Of a stretch of 64,000 nucleotides of DNA, positions 29,340 to 48,400 are shown in pieces (the first letter of the stretch is position 1; each line of letters begins with the position of its first letter). The stretch comes from Mobula hypostoma. Taxonomy: Eukaryota. The stretch spans positions 98,272,001 through 98,336,000 of the forward strand of contig NC_086097.1 of assembly GCF_963921235.1 (NCBI RefSeq), in the 5' to 3' direction. Below the pieces are notes generated by a model. It worked only from the letters and a program-made list of their open reading frames with translations, made no database searches and had not been told where the DNA came from. Made by a program: the position numbers and the translations under genes.

Positions 29340-29853
29340 CTTCAGTAAAAATATAAAGAAAAATAGCTGATATTAAGAAGTGATTCCTCTTTTGTTTTCT
29401 TCAAATAACATTCGAGGACATGCAATACCAATTACATATCTATTCTCATTTCACTTAGGAAGAAAATAATAAAACCTGAAAATGGGAATTCACTGTCACA
29501 TGCCTTTGTAGCTTTGATAAATCTTTTATTGTAACTGAATTGCCTAACTCTGTCACATAAATGAAAAAGACAAGCTCAGGCCTGGTTACAAATGGGGAGT
29601 CATTTAATTTTGGATAGCTAGCATGAGCCACTGGTTCCTGTGAAGACAAAGGAGATTTGGAAATGCCATGAACGTCTGGATTGTTTTTTAAACGGCTTGT
29701 TTTGGGGTGGAATAAATAAAAAAAAATAATGAGGTTTTTTTGCATGTTGTTGGTGTGGATTTGAATCTACAACCCCCTCACATCCTGCCAAATAGATTCA
29801 CCTGCTTTAACTCAGGCGCAGTCATAGTCTGGAAACCTAAAGTAGGCCATTCA

Positions 29854-30069
29854 CAAACGAGAAAATCTGCAGATGCTGGGAAGGAAATCCGAGCAACACA
29901 CACACAATGCTGGAGGAACTCAGCAGGACAGGCAGCATCTATGGAAAAGAGTATAGTCAACGGTTCAGGCTGAGACCCTTCAGCAAGACTGTACTAAAGG
30001 GTCTTGGCCCAAAATGTCCACTGTACTCTTTTTCCATAGATGCCTGCTGAGTTCCTCCAGCATTGTATG
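29854..30069. mobile_element. Penelope pLTR-derived hairpin insertion with two decayed, inverted hammerhead motifs
   Basis: Inverted arms (..AATGCTGGAGGAACTCAGCAGG..CATCTATGGAAAA / TTTTCCATAGATG..CCTGCTGAGTTCCTCCAGCATT). 13-bp TSD AGTAGG(C/T)CATTCA at 29841-29853 and 30070-30082. Confidence 0.8.
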
Positions 30070-37908: not shown

Positions 37909-39049
37909 TATATTGAAGGCAGAGGTTGACAGATTCCTGATTGGTCAGGGCATGAAGGGATATGGGGAAAAGTCAGGTGATTGGGGCAGAGGGGAAAATT
38001 GGATCAGGCACGATGAACTGTTGGAGCAGGCTCGATGCTCCTATATCTTGATAGTCTTATGGTACAGGAGCAGCCAAGCATCTGACCACAAATCCCTGCA
38101 AAGGACTGAGAACAGCTAAGAGGATCATAAGCATCTCCCTACCATCCGTTGGAACATTTATCAGAAGTGCTGCATATGCACGGCCCTTAATATTATTAGG
38201 GATCCCACCCATCCATCCAGCATCCTCTGACTTTCTATCATTAGGCAGGAGACTCTGATGCATAAAAACAGGAACAGTCAGGATGGGATAACATTTCTTC
38301 CCCCAGGCTTCTAGACTTCACGCCGTATCGTATTCGAAGTGTCACTGGTTAATCTGTTCTGTACCTTACAATGTTTAATATTAATGCACTTCAGTTTGTT
38401 ATTTATGCATGATTCATCTGTAGATTTTATCTTTACCTTCATTAGTTATCATGTGTAATGTGTGTTAAGAGTACTACTTCACATCCTGGTTCAGAGAAAC
38501 GTTTTCTAGTTCCTATGAACATTATATGATTACATATGACATATACATGTATATAGTCAAATGACAAACCTGACTTGAACACATCTCACATGCATAATCA
38601 GAAGATTAACCCCTTGCTTCCACCATTTCCGATTTAAAAGTCCAATTTCCAATCTGTTCTAATTTCTATTAATAAACCTGTCTGAATCTCACTGAATGCT
38701 CCAGTGACCTTTTAGGCAATATATTTCATCATTTATTCCTTATTTATCTTGCTAATGATTTCAATTAATCAGATGTGACGTCCTTAAAGCTCTGATGGGC
38801 GATGTGCTCAACTGTCTCTTACTAAACTGTCTAGTAACAGGCCACAAGAAATGTTACACTAATAGACCAAGTTATCAATAACAGAAAATGCTTAAACACT
38901 GAATGGGTCACATGGCATTTGCAGAAACAAAAACACAAGTTAATGGTTCAGGTCAAAGATCCTTCTGGATAACAGATTTCTATTTACTTAGCTTCACTTT
39001 CACCCCCTCAATGTGATGGTTGCATTTTAAGCAGTACGTGATACAATTT

Positions 39050-39177
39050 ACACACAAAGTTGCTGGTGAACACAGCAGGCCAGGCAGCATCTCTAGGAAG
39101 AGGTACAGTCGACGTTTCGGGCCGAGACCCTTCGTCAGGACTAACTGAAGGAAGAGCTAGTAAGAGATTTGAAAGTT
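39050..39177 (-). mobile_element. Penelope pLTR fragment (single arm) containing an intact hammerhead motif
   Basis: Same arm sequence as the hairpins at 39556 and 45916, extended through the ribozyme core. Confidence 0.8.
39107..39142 (-). ncRNA. Minimal type I hammerhead ribozyme motif (Penelope-associated)
   Basis: AGUC-CUGACGA-A-GGGU(CUCG)GCCC-GAAA-CG-UC/GACU: stem I AGUC:GACU, complete core, 4-bp stem II, loopless palindromic ACGU stem III, GUC cleavage triplet (between 39111 and 39110). Confidence 0.8.
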
Positions 39178-39555
39178 TAACATTTCAACGAGCAAATTCT
39201 GAAAAAGCTGTTACTTGGTGAGAAGAGTACAGTTCACAATCTTGAGTTAACATTTCCAGCTGCACACACACCCCGAGTGGTTATCTATTATTCAATGCGC
39301 ACTTGGCATTCTAAATTAGATAGCGTTTTACTGAGTTAGAAAAGCTAAAAATTGGCCTCTTACAGAAGACATTTTCACAGCGTATTTAATGCAAGACCAT
39401 GAGATGAAAGGGTTAGTCAACCACTCTGCACTTAATTCTGCTGGAAACAGACTGGCTGGTGTCTGAAAGCGTTTTGAGTGTGCAGCAATGCCATTTGCCA
39501 ATAGCACTTTTGTTATGGTCTCACTGTGACAGAGAAGAAAGCAATCCCAGTCCTA

Positions 39556-39734
39556 GCAACACACATCAAAGTTGCTGGTGAACACAGCAGGCCAGCCAGC
39601 ATCTCTAGGAAGACGTACAGTCGACTGTACCTCTTCCTAGAGATGCTGCCTGGCCTGCTGTGTTCACCAGCAACTTTGATGTGTGTTGCTTGAATTTCCA
39701 GCATCTGCAGAATTCCTGTTGTTTGTGTTTTTAA
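39556..39734 (+). mobile_element. Penelope pLTR-derived near-perfect palindromic insertion
   Basis: 67-bp arms 39556-39622 and 39623-39689 with 2 mismatches and no spacer. Perfect 13-bp TSD AATCCCAGTCCTA (39543-39555 and 39735-39747). Confidence 0.88.
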
Positions 39735-39808
39735 AATCCCAGTCCTACTTCCTTTACTTGCAGCCCTCCAACTTATTCTGACTCACTTATCAATTAACTT
39801 CCCATACA

Positions 39809-42800
39809 CAGTGGATTCTAGTTAATTGGGACACATCAGAACTAGTACATTTTGGCCCAACTAAAGGTCCACCCCAATTAGCTGAAATTTCATGGAAATA
39901 GTTAAAATATAAAAAAGACAAATTACCATTTAACTGAGTAACAAATTATGTATTTAAATGAAACAGAACAAATTAGAACACAACCAATACTACTACAGTA
40001 CTATAAAACCGTATTAGTTTCTTACAGCTATCAAAAGAATTCATCCAGGGTACGCTGCCATGTTCTTTTGATTGACAGTAAATGAACAAAGTCAGCACAG
40101 ATACCTAGTGTAGATAATGAACTGCCTTCATAACAATGTTTTTGACAATTATTTATTTCCAAATATTTATTTCCTTTGTAACATTCAAGATGATTGTCAA
40201 TACCTACAAATATACCTATAGCGCTTAACTTGAAGCAGCAAAAGGGTTTCATTTTCACTCCCAGCTGTTTCTGGCATCTCCAAACCTGAATGCTTGAAAC
40301 CACCGTGAGCAAAATGAAAATGGTTCTGAATTGCCCTACTGCTTATCGCTCACCAACTGTCAGTGCAAGAATCACTGCTGTTGGAAGACAAACGTGCACA
40401 TCTGATGCTACTTTAAAACTGTTCACTCTAAGCACACCAGTACACGACTGATGCTAGTTAGAACCTATTCAGCAACATTCAGTCTTTTGTTGGGGGGGGG
40501 GGGGGAAGAGACAGCATCAGTGGCCGTGCCTCTGGCAAGGGGTTTAGATGGGCTGGAGTTTGTTAGGTGTGTTCAGGAAGGTTTCTTGACACAATATGTA
40601 GATAAGCCTACAAGAGGAGAGACTGTACTTGATTTGGTACTGGGAAATGAACCTGGTCAGGTGTCAGCTATCTCAGTGGGAGAGCATTTTGGAGATAGAG
40701 ATCACAATTCACAATAGCAATGGAGAGCGGAACAAACAAGTTAGAAAAGCATTTAATTGGAGTAAGGGGAATTATGAGGCTATCAGGCAGGAACTTGGAA
40801 GCTTAAATTGGGAAAAGATATTCTCAGGGAAAGGTACAGAAGAAATGTGGCAAATATTCAGGGGATATTTGTGTGGAGTTCTGCATAGGTACGATCCAAA
40901 TAGACAGGGAAATTATGGTAGGGTACCAGAACTGTGGTGTACAAAGGCTGTAATAATTCTAGTCAAGAAGAAAAGCTTACAAAAGGGTCAGAGAGCTAGG
41001 TAATGTTAGAGGTCTAGAAGATTATAAGGCTAACAGAAAGAAGCTTAAGGAGGAAATTAGGAGAGCCAGAAGGGGCCATGAGAAGGCCTTGGCGGGCAGA
41101 TTAAGGAAAACCCCAAGGCATTCTACAAGTATGTGAAGAGCAAGAGGATAAGAGGTGAAAGAATAGAACCTATCAAGTGTGTATGGAACCGGAGGAAATA
41201 GCAGAGGTACTTAATGAATACTTTACTTCAGTATTCACTATGGAAAAGGAGCTTAGTGATTGTAGGGATGACTTGCAGCAGACTGAAAAGCTTGAGCATG
41301 TAGATATTAAGAAAGAGGATGTGCTGGAGCTTTTGGAAAGCATGAAGTTGGACAAGTCGCCGGGACCAGATGAGATGTACCCCAGGCTACTGTGGGAAGT
41401 GAGGGAGGAGATTGTTGAGATTCTGGCGATGATCTTTGCATTATCAATGGGGACATGAGAGGTTCCAGAGGATTGGAGGGTTGCGGATGTTGTTCCCTTA
41501 TTCAAGAAAGGGAGCAGAGATAGCCCAGGAATTTATAGACCAGTGAGTCTTACTTCGGTGGTTGGTAAGTTGATGGAGAAGATCCTGAGAGGCAGGATTT
41601 ATGAACATTTGGAGAGGCATAATATGATTAGGAATAGTCAGCATGGCTTTGTCAAGGGCAGGTCATGCTTACGAGCCTGATCGAATTTTTTTGAGGATGT
41701 GACTAAACAGGTTGATGAAGGAAGAGTAGTAGATGTAGTGTATATGGATTTCAGCAAGGTATTTGATAAGGTACCCCATGCCAAGCTTATTGAGAAAGTA
41801 AGGAGGCATGGGATCCAAGGGGAGATTGCTTTGTGGATCCAGAAATGGCTTGCCTACAGAAGGCAAAGTGTGGTTGTAGATGGGTCATATTCTGCATGGA
41901 GGTCAGTGACCAGTGGTGTGCCTCAGGGATCTGTTCTGGGACCCCTGCTCTTTGTGATTTTTATAAATGACCTGGATGAGGAAGTGGAGGGATGGATTAG
42001 TAAATTTGCTGATGGCACAAAGGTTGGGTGTGTTGTGGATAGTGTTGAGGGCTGTCAGAGGTTACAGTGGGACATTGATAGGATGCAAAACTAGGCTGAG
42101 AAGTGGCAGATGGAGTTCAACCTGGATAAGTGTGAAGTGGTTCATTTTGGTAGGTCAAATATGACTGCAGAATATAGTATTAATGGTAAGACTCTTGGCA
42201 GTGTGGAGGATCAGAGGGATCTTGGGGTCCAAGTCCATAGGACACTCAAAGCAGCTGCGCAGGTCGACTCTGTGGTTAAGAAGGCATACGGTGCATTGGC
42301 CTTCATCAATCGTGGAATTGAATTTAGGAGCCGAGAGGTAATGTTGCAGCTATACATGACCCTGGTCAGACCCCACTTGGAGTGTACTGTGCTCAGTTCT
42401 GGCCACCTCACTGCAGGAAGGATGGGGAAACCAGAGAAAAGGTGCAGAGGAGATTTACAGGGATGTTGCCTGGATTGGGGAGCATGCCTTATGAAGACAG
42501 GTTGAGTGAACTCTGTCTTTTCTCCTTGGAGCGAAGGAGGATGAGAGGTGACCTGATAGAGGTGTACAAGATGATGAGAGGCATTGATCGTGTGGATAGT
42601 CAGAGGCTTTTTCCCAGGGCTGAAATGGCTGCCACAAGAGGGCACAGGTTTAAGGTACAGAGGAGATGTCAGGGGTAAGTTGTTGTTGTTGTTTGGTTTC
42701 TTTTAAAAAATGCAGAGTGGTGAGTGCGCCGAGTGGGCTGCTGGCAACGGAGGTGGAGGCGGAATTGACAGGGTCTTTTAAAAGACTTTTGGATAGGTAC

Positions 42801-43067
42801 ATGGAGCTTAGAAAAATAGAGGGCTATGGGTAACCCTAGTAATTTCTAAGGTAGGGACATGTTTGGTACAACTTTGTGGGCTGAAGGGCCTGTATTGTGC
42901 TGTAGGTTTTCTATTTTTCTGTTCTCCTGATCCAATTAAGCGGCATGGTGTCCAAATAAGCAAAGGAAATCCTGGTAATTTTCTCGATTAGTGTTTGTTC
43001 TTTAAGAGTTGCCCCAAATAAGCGGCTGACCCGATTGACCCACGGCCCAATTAACTAGAATCCACTG
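39809..43067. mobile_element. Non-autonomous Tc1/mariner-superfamily (Tigger-like) DNA element split by a CR1 insertion
   Basis: 22-bp perfect TIR CAGTGGATTCTAGTTAATTGGG / CCCAATTAACTAGAATCCACTG|TA. Confidence 0.8.
40525..42925 (+). mobile_element. Relatively young 5'-truncated CR1 LINE (ORF2 endonuclease end, RT, 3' tail)
   Basis: YMDFSKVFDKVPH, SGVPQGSVLGPLLFVIFINDL, KFADGTK and LVRPHLE, with few stops or frameshifts. Confidence 0.95.
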
Positions 43068-43914
43068 TATTAATTTGCAATAAAGCAGTGGCCAATTGAT
43101 CCAACATATTGGAGGAAACCAGACCACCAGGTAAAAACCCACTTAGCCATGGGAAGAAAATGCAAGACAAAAGATCTGGAGCTGCAGTAGACTGCTTTCC
43201 AGTTGGTACAGGCAGACACAATATAGATTATATGGAGGAATGTTCACTTCTGCTATCCCTACCACCCAATCACATTCTCCAGCTCTTCAAACTACATGGA
43301 TCCAAAGGTGAAGGGTTTCACAGTCAGTTGCTGTCACTCTGGCTTCCAAATTGTATCAGAGATGATAGAGGAGGGTGGGGGGGAAATCTACGTCATAGTT
43401 CCCAGTTTTCTGCTTGCAACTGCATGAAAGAAGTCATCTCTGTGTTCTATTGTGGGTGTCTGATGTTTGCTTTGGTAGCTGAGGAAAGCCAAGAGAGTAA
43501 GGAGTACAGCTGAATAGAAGACTGCTGAAAATGACCAGGCGCTGGGTCAAGGAATTCTGCTCAACAACTCTGATGTCACACACATAAAGGCTAAAATAGG
43601 GAAGAATGTGAAAAGGATGCTGAAGCATTGGCTGACAGTGTAGGATAGGCATATGGGTAAGTTTTAAGGAGCATTAGTGAAATATAATTCTATGCCACAA
43701 AACACGAATCTCAATTTATAAAAATGTGGAACTTCTTCCTGAACTACTAATATATGCTAAAAATTGGTGCAGGAGCACATCTTAAGTCATTTCTAACTCT
43801 TCTGGCACCTCAGGGACACAGATTATATCTTATTTCCAACACATTCAATAAGATGTTCCAATCAGAATAAGTAAACTCAGGTTTGCATCCTCTTCTGTAG
43901 CAGTTTCTGATGTC

Positions 43915-45445: not shown

Positions 45446-48400
45446 TGTAACCCTCTCCCCGGCCGCCTGCACCAACTTGGCTTAGCAGAGCTAGCTGTCA
45501 ACAGCCATGTGACTCAGCAGCAAGAAGGCTAGCTTTCATAAGCAATATAGGTCTAGGGTTGGTATGATTTGGGGTTCAACCAAACAGGAACCTCCTGATG
45601 TTCTGATTAAAGGAACCTCGATTTGAGTGAATGCTGTGTAAATATTGCCCATACACAGTTATCGGTCGCCCAGAAATAACAGATTGCACACCAGCATAAA
45701 ATTAAGTATATTTACCAAATTTACAGTTACAGAAAAAGGAAAGAAATAAAAAGGCCCATTACAGCTAAACCAGTCCAATGTGCACATAAACATTGGAGCT
45801 CATTTCTTGAGTAGTCGGGGGTGTATTGCTTTACTCACATGGTGAACCCATGGTTTGCGTGAGAGCACCTGTCACAGTCAGTATTTCCCTCGAAGACCAT
45901 CTTGAATGAACTGGCAAAACACATAAAAGTTGCTGGTGAACACAGCAGGCCAGGCAACATCTCTAGGAAGAGGTGCAGTCGACGTTTCAGGACGAGACCC
46001 TTCGTCTGCACCTCTTCCTAGAGATGCTGCTTGGCCTGCTGTGTTCACCAGCAACTTTTATGTGTGTTGCTTGAATTTCCAGCATCTGCAGAATTCCTGT
46101 TGTTTGAATGAACTGGCTCTTTTTGGAGTTACTCACCTGTACAAGGCACTTCTTGCAACACGACTTATCTTCCAATGGTATTCTGTGGCATCTTCCCTTG
46201 TGCCCCGCTCCACAGCTCCCGCCAAGAGGACCCCAGACTACTGTCCTCCAGAATTCTCTTCCCACCCAGCTCGCTAGAACCTTCTCTACATCCCACAATC
46301 CTGACTGGTTGACAACACGGCTCCTTATCTTTCACCAAAACATTTTTACCAGAACACACTGCATTTACAGAAACTGCTAAAATAAAGTACTTCACAGCAT
46401 AGCAATAGAAATCTTAACCAGGGCATTATCTTCTCCTCCCACCAAAAAGTCATGTCCTCGCGAGTTTGGAACTCATTAAACCATTATTAAAAATACAGCA
46501 TTGAAATAAATATTATGATTTCAGTACCCCCAATCCATTTCTAAATATCAGTAACATATCTTGCTACTGGGATGGACACAACTCTGTTTCCCCGGTGCAT
46601 TATATGCCAGCTTATCAGGGGATTTCCTAACTGACACTTTATCTCATCGTCAGCTTCTTCAGCCTCACGTACTCCTTGTGACTGTTCCGTCTACTTGGGG
46701 ATGCCGCCTCGTCTATCACTTGTACCTACCAGCGACTCGGGTCTCCCTACCAGCTGACGGAACTCAGCTTCATTCCCAATTATATTGGAGCCCAGTTTGA
46801 ACAGGTGCTGCTGAACATAGTCAACCTTCACTGGTGCTAACCAGCGAGACCTCTCCTGGAAAGGGATGTCCTCCATCACTATAGTGTGGTGAGTACTCTT
46901 GGAGCAGCAAACAAACTCATCAGTAAAAAAAGACATCTTCAAGCTTCAACATCCTTTCCCTTTCCATTCCTCGGGTATTGGGGAGTTAACAAAGTCAAAT
47001 GACTTTGCTGTTAACTTTCCCGATTCAGGAGACTGTTCCTCTCCCAGGTAAGGTCTCCCTCTGAGGTGTTCCTGATAATCACTGTCATCCTGTTCCGTGG
47101 ACAGCTGAAGGTTTCTGCAGAGTTCAGGTCTCACCAACGCTCTAGCACGTAAGCGTGACCCTTCCGTGGTCCTCCAGAGCATCCACCTGCAGGGGCCATG
47201 GCATCGGGCATTCCGGAGGAATCTGGGGTTTCCCGTCACTCTAGCTACTTCCCCAGGATGTAGAATGATGGGTTTAGACTGGGTGTACCAAACAGTTTCT
47301 CAATTATGCTCATCATCCTGATTAGGAGGAAATTGCACCTTCTCAAAAACAGCTCTGAACACTGAGTGAAAGGACAGGGTGCTTTTTGGATGGTCCCACG
47401 AGCCTTCTCACAATGGGAGTATTTGTTCCCACAAGAACGGAAGCTTCACTTTTCTCCAAGTAAAATGTGGACTGCCCATGGTCCCACCTCTCCAGGCTCC
47501 CCAATCTTCTCACGTCATCAGAAGCCTGGACTAACATGACATCCTTACCAGCTGATTGGTCAAAATGCATTAAATCAGCGTAACTTCTTCAAAACTTTTA
47601 CAGAATTCAGCGCTTTAAACCACAGGGCGTCAGGGATTTGAATAACCACTCCACTCTGAACACCAGTATTACTTGTGGTTAACCTCTTCAAATTGCACCT
47701 TAATCCCAGCAGCATCCAATACAAAGTACTTTAATTACAACACACCTCACTTTCCCCAAACACCAGTTTACACACTAGTTTAAACACACAAATAAAACCA
47801 CTTAATCAATCCTTAAACAGCATTCACCCAGCATCTGAAATCCAGGGTGAGCACCCTACAAATGTAACCTTCTCATCAGGCTTGTACCCCAACTTGGCTT
47901 GTTAGTTAACTCGTTTACCAGCCATGTGACTCAGCGGTGAGAAGACCACCTTCCATATGCAATAGGGTCGGTATGAGCTGGGGTTCAACCAAACAGGAAT
48001 GTTGGGATGTCTCAATTAAAGAAACCCCAATTTGAGTGAATGCTGTGTAAGTACTACCCACACACAGATATTGGTAGCCCAGAAATGACAGATCTTACGC
48101 CAGCATAAAAACATAAAAGAAAGCATATTTACCAAATTTACATTTACAGAAAAAAAATAAAAGGGGCCCATTACATCTAAACATATAAACGTTGGAGCTC
48201 ATTTCTGGAATAGTCAGGGGTATCACTTCACTCACACATTGGACCCACCGTCTGCATGAAAGCACCCACCACAGTCCAAATTTCCCTTGAAGACCATCTC
48301 AAATGAACTGGCTCTCTCAGGCATATGGGCTTTTCCTCCTTGGAGCGATCCTGCCAAAAGGATCCCAAACCAGACTATTGTCCTCCAGAAATCTCTTCCC

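What the first reader, a model, noticed from the sequence alone, without database searches (positions are those of the whole stretch)
39543..39747. Spacerless palindrome whose axis is exactly the predicted ribozyme cleavage site
Seen: 67-bp arms (2 mismatches) meet at AGTC|GACT. The right arm starts GACTGTACC, which is precisely the 5' end that hammerhead cleavage of the neighbouring copy would generate, and the insert has a perfect 13-bp TSD. Inference: a self-cleaved RNA was reverse transcribed to its 5' end and then copied back on itself, leaving a fossil of ribozyme activity. Alternative: deletion between two GTCGAC sites of a longer hairpin would give the same product.
Basis: partly seen in the sequence, partly recalled or inferred. 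Interest (0 to 1): 0.7.

Follow-up and report, generated by a model that had tools for sequence, protein, structure and literature searches.

The report
Penelope hairpin centred on ribozyme cut
This 179-base hairpin is one of about a hundred similar stubs of a Penelope-type jumping gene; it likely folds at the predicted ribozyme cut site because a six-letter palindrome sits there, but other copies in the genome stop at exactly that site about twice as often as at neighbouring bases, which suggests that self-cut RNA is occasionally copied back into DNA.

Summary
Observation confirmed: 67-bp arms (2 mismatches), no spacer, exact 13-bp TSD, axis at the predicted GUC|G cut of a minimal hammerhead. 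It is a two-armed Penelope-like (PLE) insertion, a known architecture. This locus cannot prove cleavage, because GTC|GAC is itself a 6-bp palindrome. Spacerless junctions also form at other palindromes: GTCGAC 100 loci, GTAC 41, ACGT 30 (needs uncut RNA), GGCC 10. Against 40,860 exact tail matches, the class is about 0.2%. The main pile-up of arm ends lies 21-40 nt upstream. Fold-back copying and later deletion find no support. However, genome-wide, arms joined to non-element DNA end at exactly +1 about 2.3-fold (1.6-3.4; hand counts) more often than at control positions. They rarely use microhomology (1 of 17 versus 13 of 44), and 8-9 loci have both arms ending at +1 around filler bases. This is the run-off signature known from ribozyme-cut R2 RNA. 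A pre-set replication on new loci alone was not significant. Odds that this copy used cut RNA: about 0.3; that a minority of the family did: about 0.6. The scan noted similar loci, and the small excess, elsewhere in this genome.

The parts
39543..39555 (.). left target-site duplication, 13 bp
   Evidence: exact copy at 39735-39747
39556..39622 (-). short (tail-less) arm: inverted copy of pLTR positions +1 to +67 (+1 = first base after the predicted cut)
   Evidence: outer end falls in the family's +65 to +69 mode (183 of 750 arm ends)
39620..39625 (.). GTCGAC 6-bp palindrome at the junction; axis equals the predicted GUC|G cut
   Evidence: sequence; present in intact copies
39623..39689 (+). 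long arm, paired part: pLTR +1 to +67
39690..39734 (+). one-sided tail (+68 to about +103) plus about 9 nt seen at the 3' end of some other copies
   Evidence: arm-end mode +100 to +104, 203 of 750
39735..39747 (.). right target-site duplication, 13 bp
39049..39180 (-). separate neighbouring single-armed copy that retains the hammerhead
39106..39143 (-). minimal type-I hammerhead motif: helix I 5 bp, CUGACGA, extra A, helix II, GAAA, CG, GUC; predicted cut between 39111 and 39110
   Evidence: motif and pairing; no Rfam hit

Best explanation
This is a TSD-flanked, head-to-head two-armed insertion of a Penelope-like element, likely made when both cut ends of the target primed reverse transcription and the two cDNAs were joined, likely by annealing at the element's own GTCGAC palindrome, which sits on the predicted ribozyme cut. 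Shown: arms, TSD, one-sided tail, recurrence, and the same kind of junction at other palindromes. Inferred: staggered cutting, priming from +103 (tail) and +67, joining through 6-bp microhomology. Separately, a small minority of the family's cDNAs likely ran off an RNA end at +1; this copy may or may not be one of them.
For: Spacerless junctions occur at every short palindrome tested. GTCGAC 76 (one subfamily; control 1) or 100 (all subfamilies and CpG decay; control 1); GTAC 41 (control 5); ACGT 30 (control 0), which lies upstream of the cut and needs uncut RNA; GGCC 10 (control 1). They carry TSDs alike: 17 of 20, 13 of 15, 5 of 5. No symmetric blunt join without microhomology was seen at +2 (100 of 119 rows listed) or +5 (100 of 234). 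Recurrent asymmetric junctions use 2-4 bp matches, e.g. about 28 of 100 listed rows are one 2-bp class (hand count). Arm outer ends are bimodal at +65-69 and +100-104, matching the two RT start sites used from both target strands in vitro (PMC11167929, first 20,000 of 33,404 characters read). Head-to-head palindromic junctions with a tail are described in PMC3846280 and PMC8557442 (passages).
Against: The dependence of junction frequency on microhomology length is not calibrated, so part of the 100 versus 30-41 difference may come from cut RNA. Ends at +1 are in excess and mostly microhomology-free. 8-9 of 50 listed loci have both arms ending at +1 around filler, which microhomology joining does not make (hand count). 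Both arms here share an uncommon TG at +39/40 (TG/TG in 1 of 70 arm pairs), so they likely had one template or source, which raises the chance of correlated ends at +1.
Confidence: 0.6

Rival explanations
1. At least one arm of this copy was made from hammerhead-cut RNA: RT ran off the 5' end at +1, and the end was joined bluntly to a second cDNA ending at +1, or annealed by its terminal GTC to an uncut partner.
For: Flank-type ends, estimated from hand counts and corrected for filters: +5 39, +4 36, +3 24, +2 43, +1 87, -1 16, -2 14, -5 43; ratio 2.3 (1.6-3.4) over the mean of +5, +4, +3, +2, -5. Single-arm TSD junctions with microhomology of 2 or more: 1 of 17 at +1, 13 of 44 elsewhere (p=0.086), 9 of 25 at +2 to +5 (p=0.031); blunt or up to 4 nt filler 10 of 17 versus 10 of 44 (p=0.013, pooled). 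Both arms at +1 with filler, inspected with TSDs: L508, L509, L510, L527. Among 50 of 66 listed loci, +1/+7 joins number 7 and +1/+4 joins 6, versus 1-3 for other 0-1 bp classes (hand count). R2 precedent: PMC3774820 (passages).
Against: The pre-set replication on new loci alone failed (4 of 8 versus 3 of 6, p=1; controls few). Only 4 of 97 unbiased arm ends fall in the 0 to +9 bin versus 36 at -40 to -21. Scaling about 10 filler loci by the blunt-to-filler ratio gives only some 3-10 blunt +1/+1 joins among 100 (inference). The hammerhead fold is not the minimum-energy fold (-9.5 versus -14.1 kcal/mol). In PMC11167929 cleavage was dispensable in vitro and no RNA-seq reads ended at the cut.
Confidence: 0.28
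2. A longer two-armed insertion later lost its spacer by deletion between the two GTCGAC sites.
For: The product would be identical (sequence logic). Internal deletions at 2-3 bp matches are common in this family.
Against: Palindromic loci are not older than spaced inversions: arm-to-arm mismatches 2.14 per 48 nt (n=22) versus 2.21 (n=24), p=0.69, on pattern-selected samples. A contig matching sister locus L013 carries the junction centre without spacer in organism B (only 8 bases of the far arm, one sample).
Confidence: 0.08
3. One cDNA reached the cut RNA end and folded back to copy itself.
For: The arms share the uncommon TG variant. Some fillers at +1 are short self-templated copies (L510, L527). 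PMC3846280 invokes self-priming for such palindromes (passage).
Against: The short arm's outer end sits at the independent priming site used by single-armed insertions with TSDs (L447, L454, L249, L459, L468 start at +63 to +69). Fold-back would have to stop there by coincidence. A hairpin with no loop cannot self-prime (inference).
Confidence: 0.04

Closest known systems
Inverted-pLTR insertions of endonuclease-bearing Penelope-like elements (PMC3846280, PMC8557442; passages read)
   Same: Head-to-head 5'-truncated arms, palindrome at the inverted junction, one-sided 30-40 bp tail, TSD, microhomology at 5' junctions.
   Different: Reduced to 179 bp with no ORF and no intact ribozyme; junction on the predicted cut site, which those passages do not discuss.
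Poseidon PLE of Anolis in vitro (PMC11167929; first 20,000 characters read)
   Same: Two RT start sites that define the tail; both target strands cut and extended; hammerhead in the pLTR.
   Different: That study found cleavage dispensable and no RNA-seq ends at the cut; here genomic junctions show a small excess at the predicted cut.
Minimal hammerheads of metazoan PLEs (PMC4209133; passages read)
   Same: Conserved core, extra base between 9 and 10.1, G10.1-C11.1, palindromic 15.2-16.2, no helix III, presumed dimer activity.
   Different: Activity of this family's motif is untested; the paper states that in vivo evidence is absent.
R2 5' junctions set by HDV-like ribozyme cleavage (PMC3774820; passages read)
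   Same: RT running off a ribozyme-cut RNA end leaves junctions with non-templated bases.
   Different: In R2 it is the main pathway, with tested ribozymes; here it would be a minor route (likely under 1% of copies) of a different ribozyme and element class.

Membership tests
EN+ Penelope-like element insertion | Inverted 5'-truncated pLTR in head-to-head orientation | tested here: met
EN+ Penelope-like element insertion | One-sided 30-40 bp tail | tested here: met
   arm ends +67 versus about +103; modes 183 and 203 of 750
EN+ Penelope-like element insertion | Target-site duplication | tested here: met
   13 bp exact; 35 of 40 palindromic sister loci
EN+ Penelope-like element insertion | RT domain in longer family copies | tested here: met
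   L049:1555-2724 hits Pfam RVT_1, E 1.4e-20, ORF ends 336 nt upstream of the cut site
EN+ Penelope-like element insertion | C-terminal GIY-YIG endonuclease | tested here: inconclusive
   GVIY...YIG motif seen by eye in translations (motif recalled); no Pfam GIY-YIG hit at E 0.01
EN+ Penelope-like element insertion | RT phylogeny within a PLE clade | not tested
   no tree built
Minimal type-I hammerhead | CUGANGA, extra base, G10.1-C11.1, GAAA, palindromic CG, GUC | tested here: met
   neighbour 39106-39143; CTGAYGA/GAAA/CGTC in 33 of 57 motif matches in loci L016-L065
Minimal type-I hammerhead | Helix I and helix II can pair | tested here: met
   5-bp helix I with one G-U, helix II; -9.5 kcal/mol, but not the minimum-energy fold
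Minimal type-I hammerhead | Match to an Rfam hammerhead model | tested here: not met
   0 matches at gathering score in the window; whether those models cover minimal forms was not checked
Minimal type-I hammerhead | Self-cleavage as a dimer | not testable with these tools
   needs in vitro transcription; indirect genomic excess at +1 only

The most novel reading that the evidence does not exclude
Genomic junctions of this family are a fossil record of in vivo hammerhead cleavage: a minority of Penelope insertions, possibly this one, were reverse transcribed from self-cut RNA whose 5' end is +1, leaving microhomology-free ends, filler-separated +1/+1 hairpins and end-to-start template jumps. 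This would be in vivo evidence that metazoan minimal hammerheads cut and that the 3' product is an integration template.
Probability: 0.6. Interest if true: 0.62.

Novelty: new member of a known kind. Interest (0 to 1): 0.4.

Why it matters
Whether the minimal hammerheads of animal Penelope elements cut in vivo is open: PMC4209133 found low in vitro activity and notes no in vivo evidence, and PMC11167929 found cleavage dispensable. The single locus is ordinary. The family-wide excess of microhomology-free ends at the predicted cut base offers a purely genomic test that can be repeated in any genome with many copies. It also suggests that cutting is a side route and not the main way copies are made. 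I found no paper reporting such a junction census in five answered library searches (open-licence PMC and bioRxiv only; no supplements read).

Tried and rejected
Rfam scan of the window: no hit. Monomer folding z -0.39; an unconstrained dimer cofold did not give a hammerhead. First automatic junction classifier was noisy and was used only as a guide. I first read discordant arms (GTAC versus GCAC, 6 of 50 listed loci) as proof of two templates; the one locus inspected (L336) shares its other subfamily markers, so I withdrew that; the +17 concordance column used a wrong position and is disregarded. A transcription start at +1 was considered: a cap would add C to the cDNA, but first letters after +1 ends are A 129, T 92, C 53 of 274, so no cap signature. 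Trimming back from CpG-containing ends (-1, -2) to reach microhomology could shift ends to +1, but +1 junctions mostly lack microhomology. Later insertion at hairpin tips could give filler loci; at the GTAC axis 0-1 of 50 listed loci show it, a weak control. Orthologue test: organism B's contig crosses the left junction by 24 bases (under the tool's 31-base bridging rule); contigs of organisms C and D end at or near the TSD; the interior could not be resolved. No RNA holder listed. The binomial test is significant only after dropping 19 ACGT palindromes, 6 ambiguous loci and the 8-9 filler loci (11 of 17, p=0.004); with the first two groups kept it is not (11 of 42, p=0.79).

Full report
Observation. 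The insert spans 39556-39734 between exact 13-bp duplications (39543-39555, 39735-39747). A 67-bp left arm is the reverse complement of the first 67 bp of the 112-bp right part, with 2 mismatches and no spacer. A separate copy 376 bp upstream (39049-39180, minus strand) carries a minimal hammerhead motif whose predicted GUC|G cut lies between 39111 and 39110. I number the base after the cut +1. But intact copies read GAAAC-GTC|GAC-TG, so the cut lies at the centre of a natural 6-bp palindrome. Any join that anneals at GTCGAC is centred there whether or not the RNA was cut.

What it is. The family has 40,860 exact matches to a 29-nt tail motif in a 3.48-Gb genome. Longer copies carry an ORF with an RT domain (Pfam RVT_1, E 1.4e-20) and a GIY-YIG-like motif seen by eye (no Pfam hit). 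Arm outer ends are bimodal: 183 of 750 at +65-69 and 203 at +100-104. This is the architecture described for endonuclease-bearing PLEs: inverted truncated pLTR, palindromic head-to-head junction, one-sided tail (PMC3846280, PMC8557442; passages). In vitro, a PLE protein cuts and extends both target strands from two RT start sites (PMC11167929; first 20,000 characters). The simplest reading is that each cut end primed one arm and the two cDNAs were joined (inference).

Is the axis special? Spacerless junctions were counted by exact patterns. GTCGAC: 76 for one subfamily (control 1), 100 with all subfamilies and CpG decay (control 1). GTAC (+5 to +8): 41 (control 5). ACGT (-5 to -2), which needs uncut RNA: 30 (control 0). 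GGCC: 10 with a strict pattern (control 1). The patterns differ in stringency, so these are rough comparisons. TSDs were found at 17 of 20, 13 of 15 and 5 of 5 inspected loci of the first three classes. A 6-bp match giving 2-3 times as many joins as a 4-bp match needs no cleavage, though the length dependence is uncalibrated. The class is about 0.2% of the tail count. In an unbiased sample, 36 of 97 arm 5' ends lie at -40 to -21 and 4 at 0 to +9. Another inverted copy in this window (45914-46106) has its junction elsewhere.

Is there any trace of cut RNA? I counted arms that end at a given base and continue with three non-reference letters: +5 234, +4 165, +3 144, +2 119, +1 274, -1 66, -2 67, -5 206. 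These totals mix in microhomology classes and small indels, and the last pattern letter excluded the three main microhomology classes at +1. I therefore counted by hand the listed rows that continue into non-element DNA: 15, 22, 15, 36, 32 of 100 listed, 14 of 66, 12 of 67 and 14 of 100. Scaled and corrected for filter and CpG loss, these give 39, 36, 24, 43, 87, 16, 14 and 43. The ratio of +1 to the mean of +5, +4, +3, +2 and -5 is 2.3 (95% 1.6-3.4); against +2 alone it is 2.0 (1.3-3.2). Positions -1 and -2 were left out of the control mean because their ends contain CpG. Some hand-classed rows proved on inspection to be inversions with long filler, so the estimates are approximate.

Junction type. 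A position-blind caller on single-armed insertions with a TSD gave blunt or up to 4 nt filler in 6 of 9 at +1 versus 7 of 38 elsewhere (p=0.008, criterion chosen after seeing data). I fixed that criterion and fetched 60 new loci. The new set alone gave 4 of 8 versus 3 of 6 (p=1), so it did not replicate the contrast; pooled 10 of 17 versus 10 of 44 (p=0.013). Microhomology of 2 or more: 1 of 9 old and 0 of 8 new at +1, versus 13 of 44 elsewhere (p=0.086) and 9 of 25 at +2 to +5 (p=0.031). The control set includes some very short second arms scored as filler.

Two-armed cases. Of 55 loci where both arms reach +1 with a 1-10 nt gap, 50 were listed. By hand, about 19 are ACGT palindromes, 8-9 have both arms ending at +1 around filler, 11 have one arm ending at +1 with 0-1 bp match, 6 are ambiguous and 6 have neither arm at +1. 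Four filler loci were read in full and have TSD-like flanks (L508, L509, L510, L527). At the GTAC axis, 0-1 of 50 listed loci (66 total) show a central filler, while +1/+7 joins (7, plus 2 with filler) and +1/+4 joins (6) outnumber other 0-1 bp classes (1-3 each). L507 has three successive units that stop at +1, add T and restart near +61; L528 has the same joint once, so the two may not be independent. No cap signature was seen (A 129, T 92, C 53). In R2, RT running off ribozyme-cut RNA leaves such non-templated junctions (PMC3774820; passages). A structural RT stop at the ribozyme core remains an untested alternative.

This locus. Perfect +1/+1 joins can come from uncut RNA (6-bp match), one cut and one uncut template (3-bp match), or two cut ends joined bluntly. 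The last is probably 3-10 of 100 by scaling from the filler loci (inference). I put about 0.3 on cut RNA here. Fold-back is unlikely because the short arm begins at the independent second priming site. Late deletion is not favoured by arm divergence (2.14 versus 2.21 mismatches per 48 nt, p=0.69) and could not be tested on an orthologue.

Verdict. The locus is an ordinary member of a known kind. The family-level excess at the cut base is modest, partly hand-counted and not fully replicated, but several tallies point the same way. It bears on an open question (PMC4209133, passages). Earlier scan notes reached similar readings on other loci of this genome; these are not independent support. Supplements of the papers were not read and may hold junction data.

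Noticed in passing
element positions -33 to -29; window 39139-39143: The commonest arm 5' ends lie at the front of helix I (36 of 97 at -40 to -21). The sequence there has a pyrimidine tract and two AG sites resembling a 3' splice site; PMC4209133 reports an intron end at helix I in D. virilis. Several junctions have GG or AGGG before GTCCTG, which could be a cap, an exon or a template jump.
   Followed up: partly
window 39049-39180, 39556-39734, 45914-46106: All three young copies in the window, and both arms of the two-armed ones, share TG at +39/40, which is uncommon (TG/TG in 1 of 70 arm pairs). This may point to a common source or a local burst.
   Followed up: partly
L336 and five other loci: At the cut-site axis, 6 of 10 GCAC-type loci have GTAC on the other arm, versus about 1 of 10 at the ACGT axis (hand count, p=0.057). 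In L336 the other markers agree. Unexplained; editing or a late template switch are possible.
   Followed up: partly
L507, L528: Tandem 62-bp units from +61/62 to +1 joined by one T, with units differing at subfamily markers; serial template jumps or a small circular RNA are possible.
   Followed up: partly
L269 and G000:C50:17751330: Telomeric TTAGGG repeats as filler at arm ends at -1.
   Followed up: no
window 45914-46106: Another two-armed insertion with its own TSD; left arm runs through the ribozyme to about -25, right arm starts at about +3.
   Followed up: partly
window 29852-30000: Older, about 77-79% identical relative of the same pLTR on the minus strand.
   Followed up: no
window 39596 and 39614: Both arm mismatches are G-to-C changes in the left arm.
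   Followed up: no
window 39808-39830 and 43046-43068: A perfect 23-bp inverted repeat pair 3.2 kb apart, possibly ends of DNA-transposon copies.
   Followed up: no
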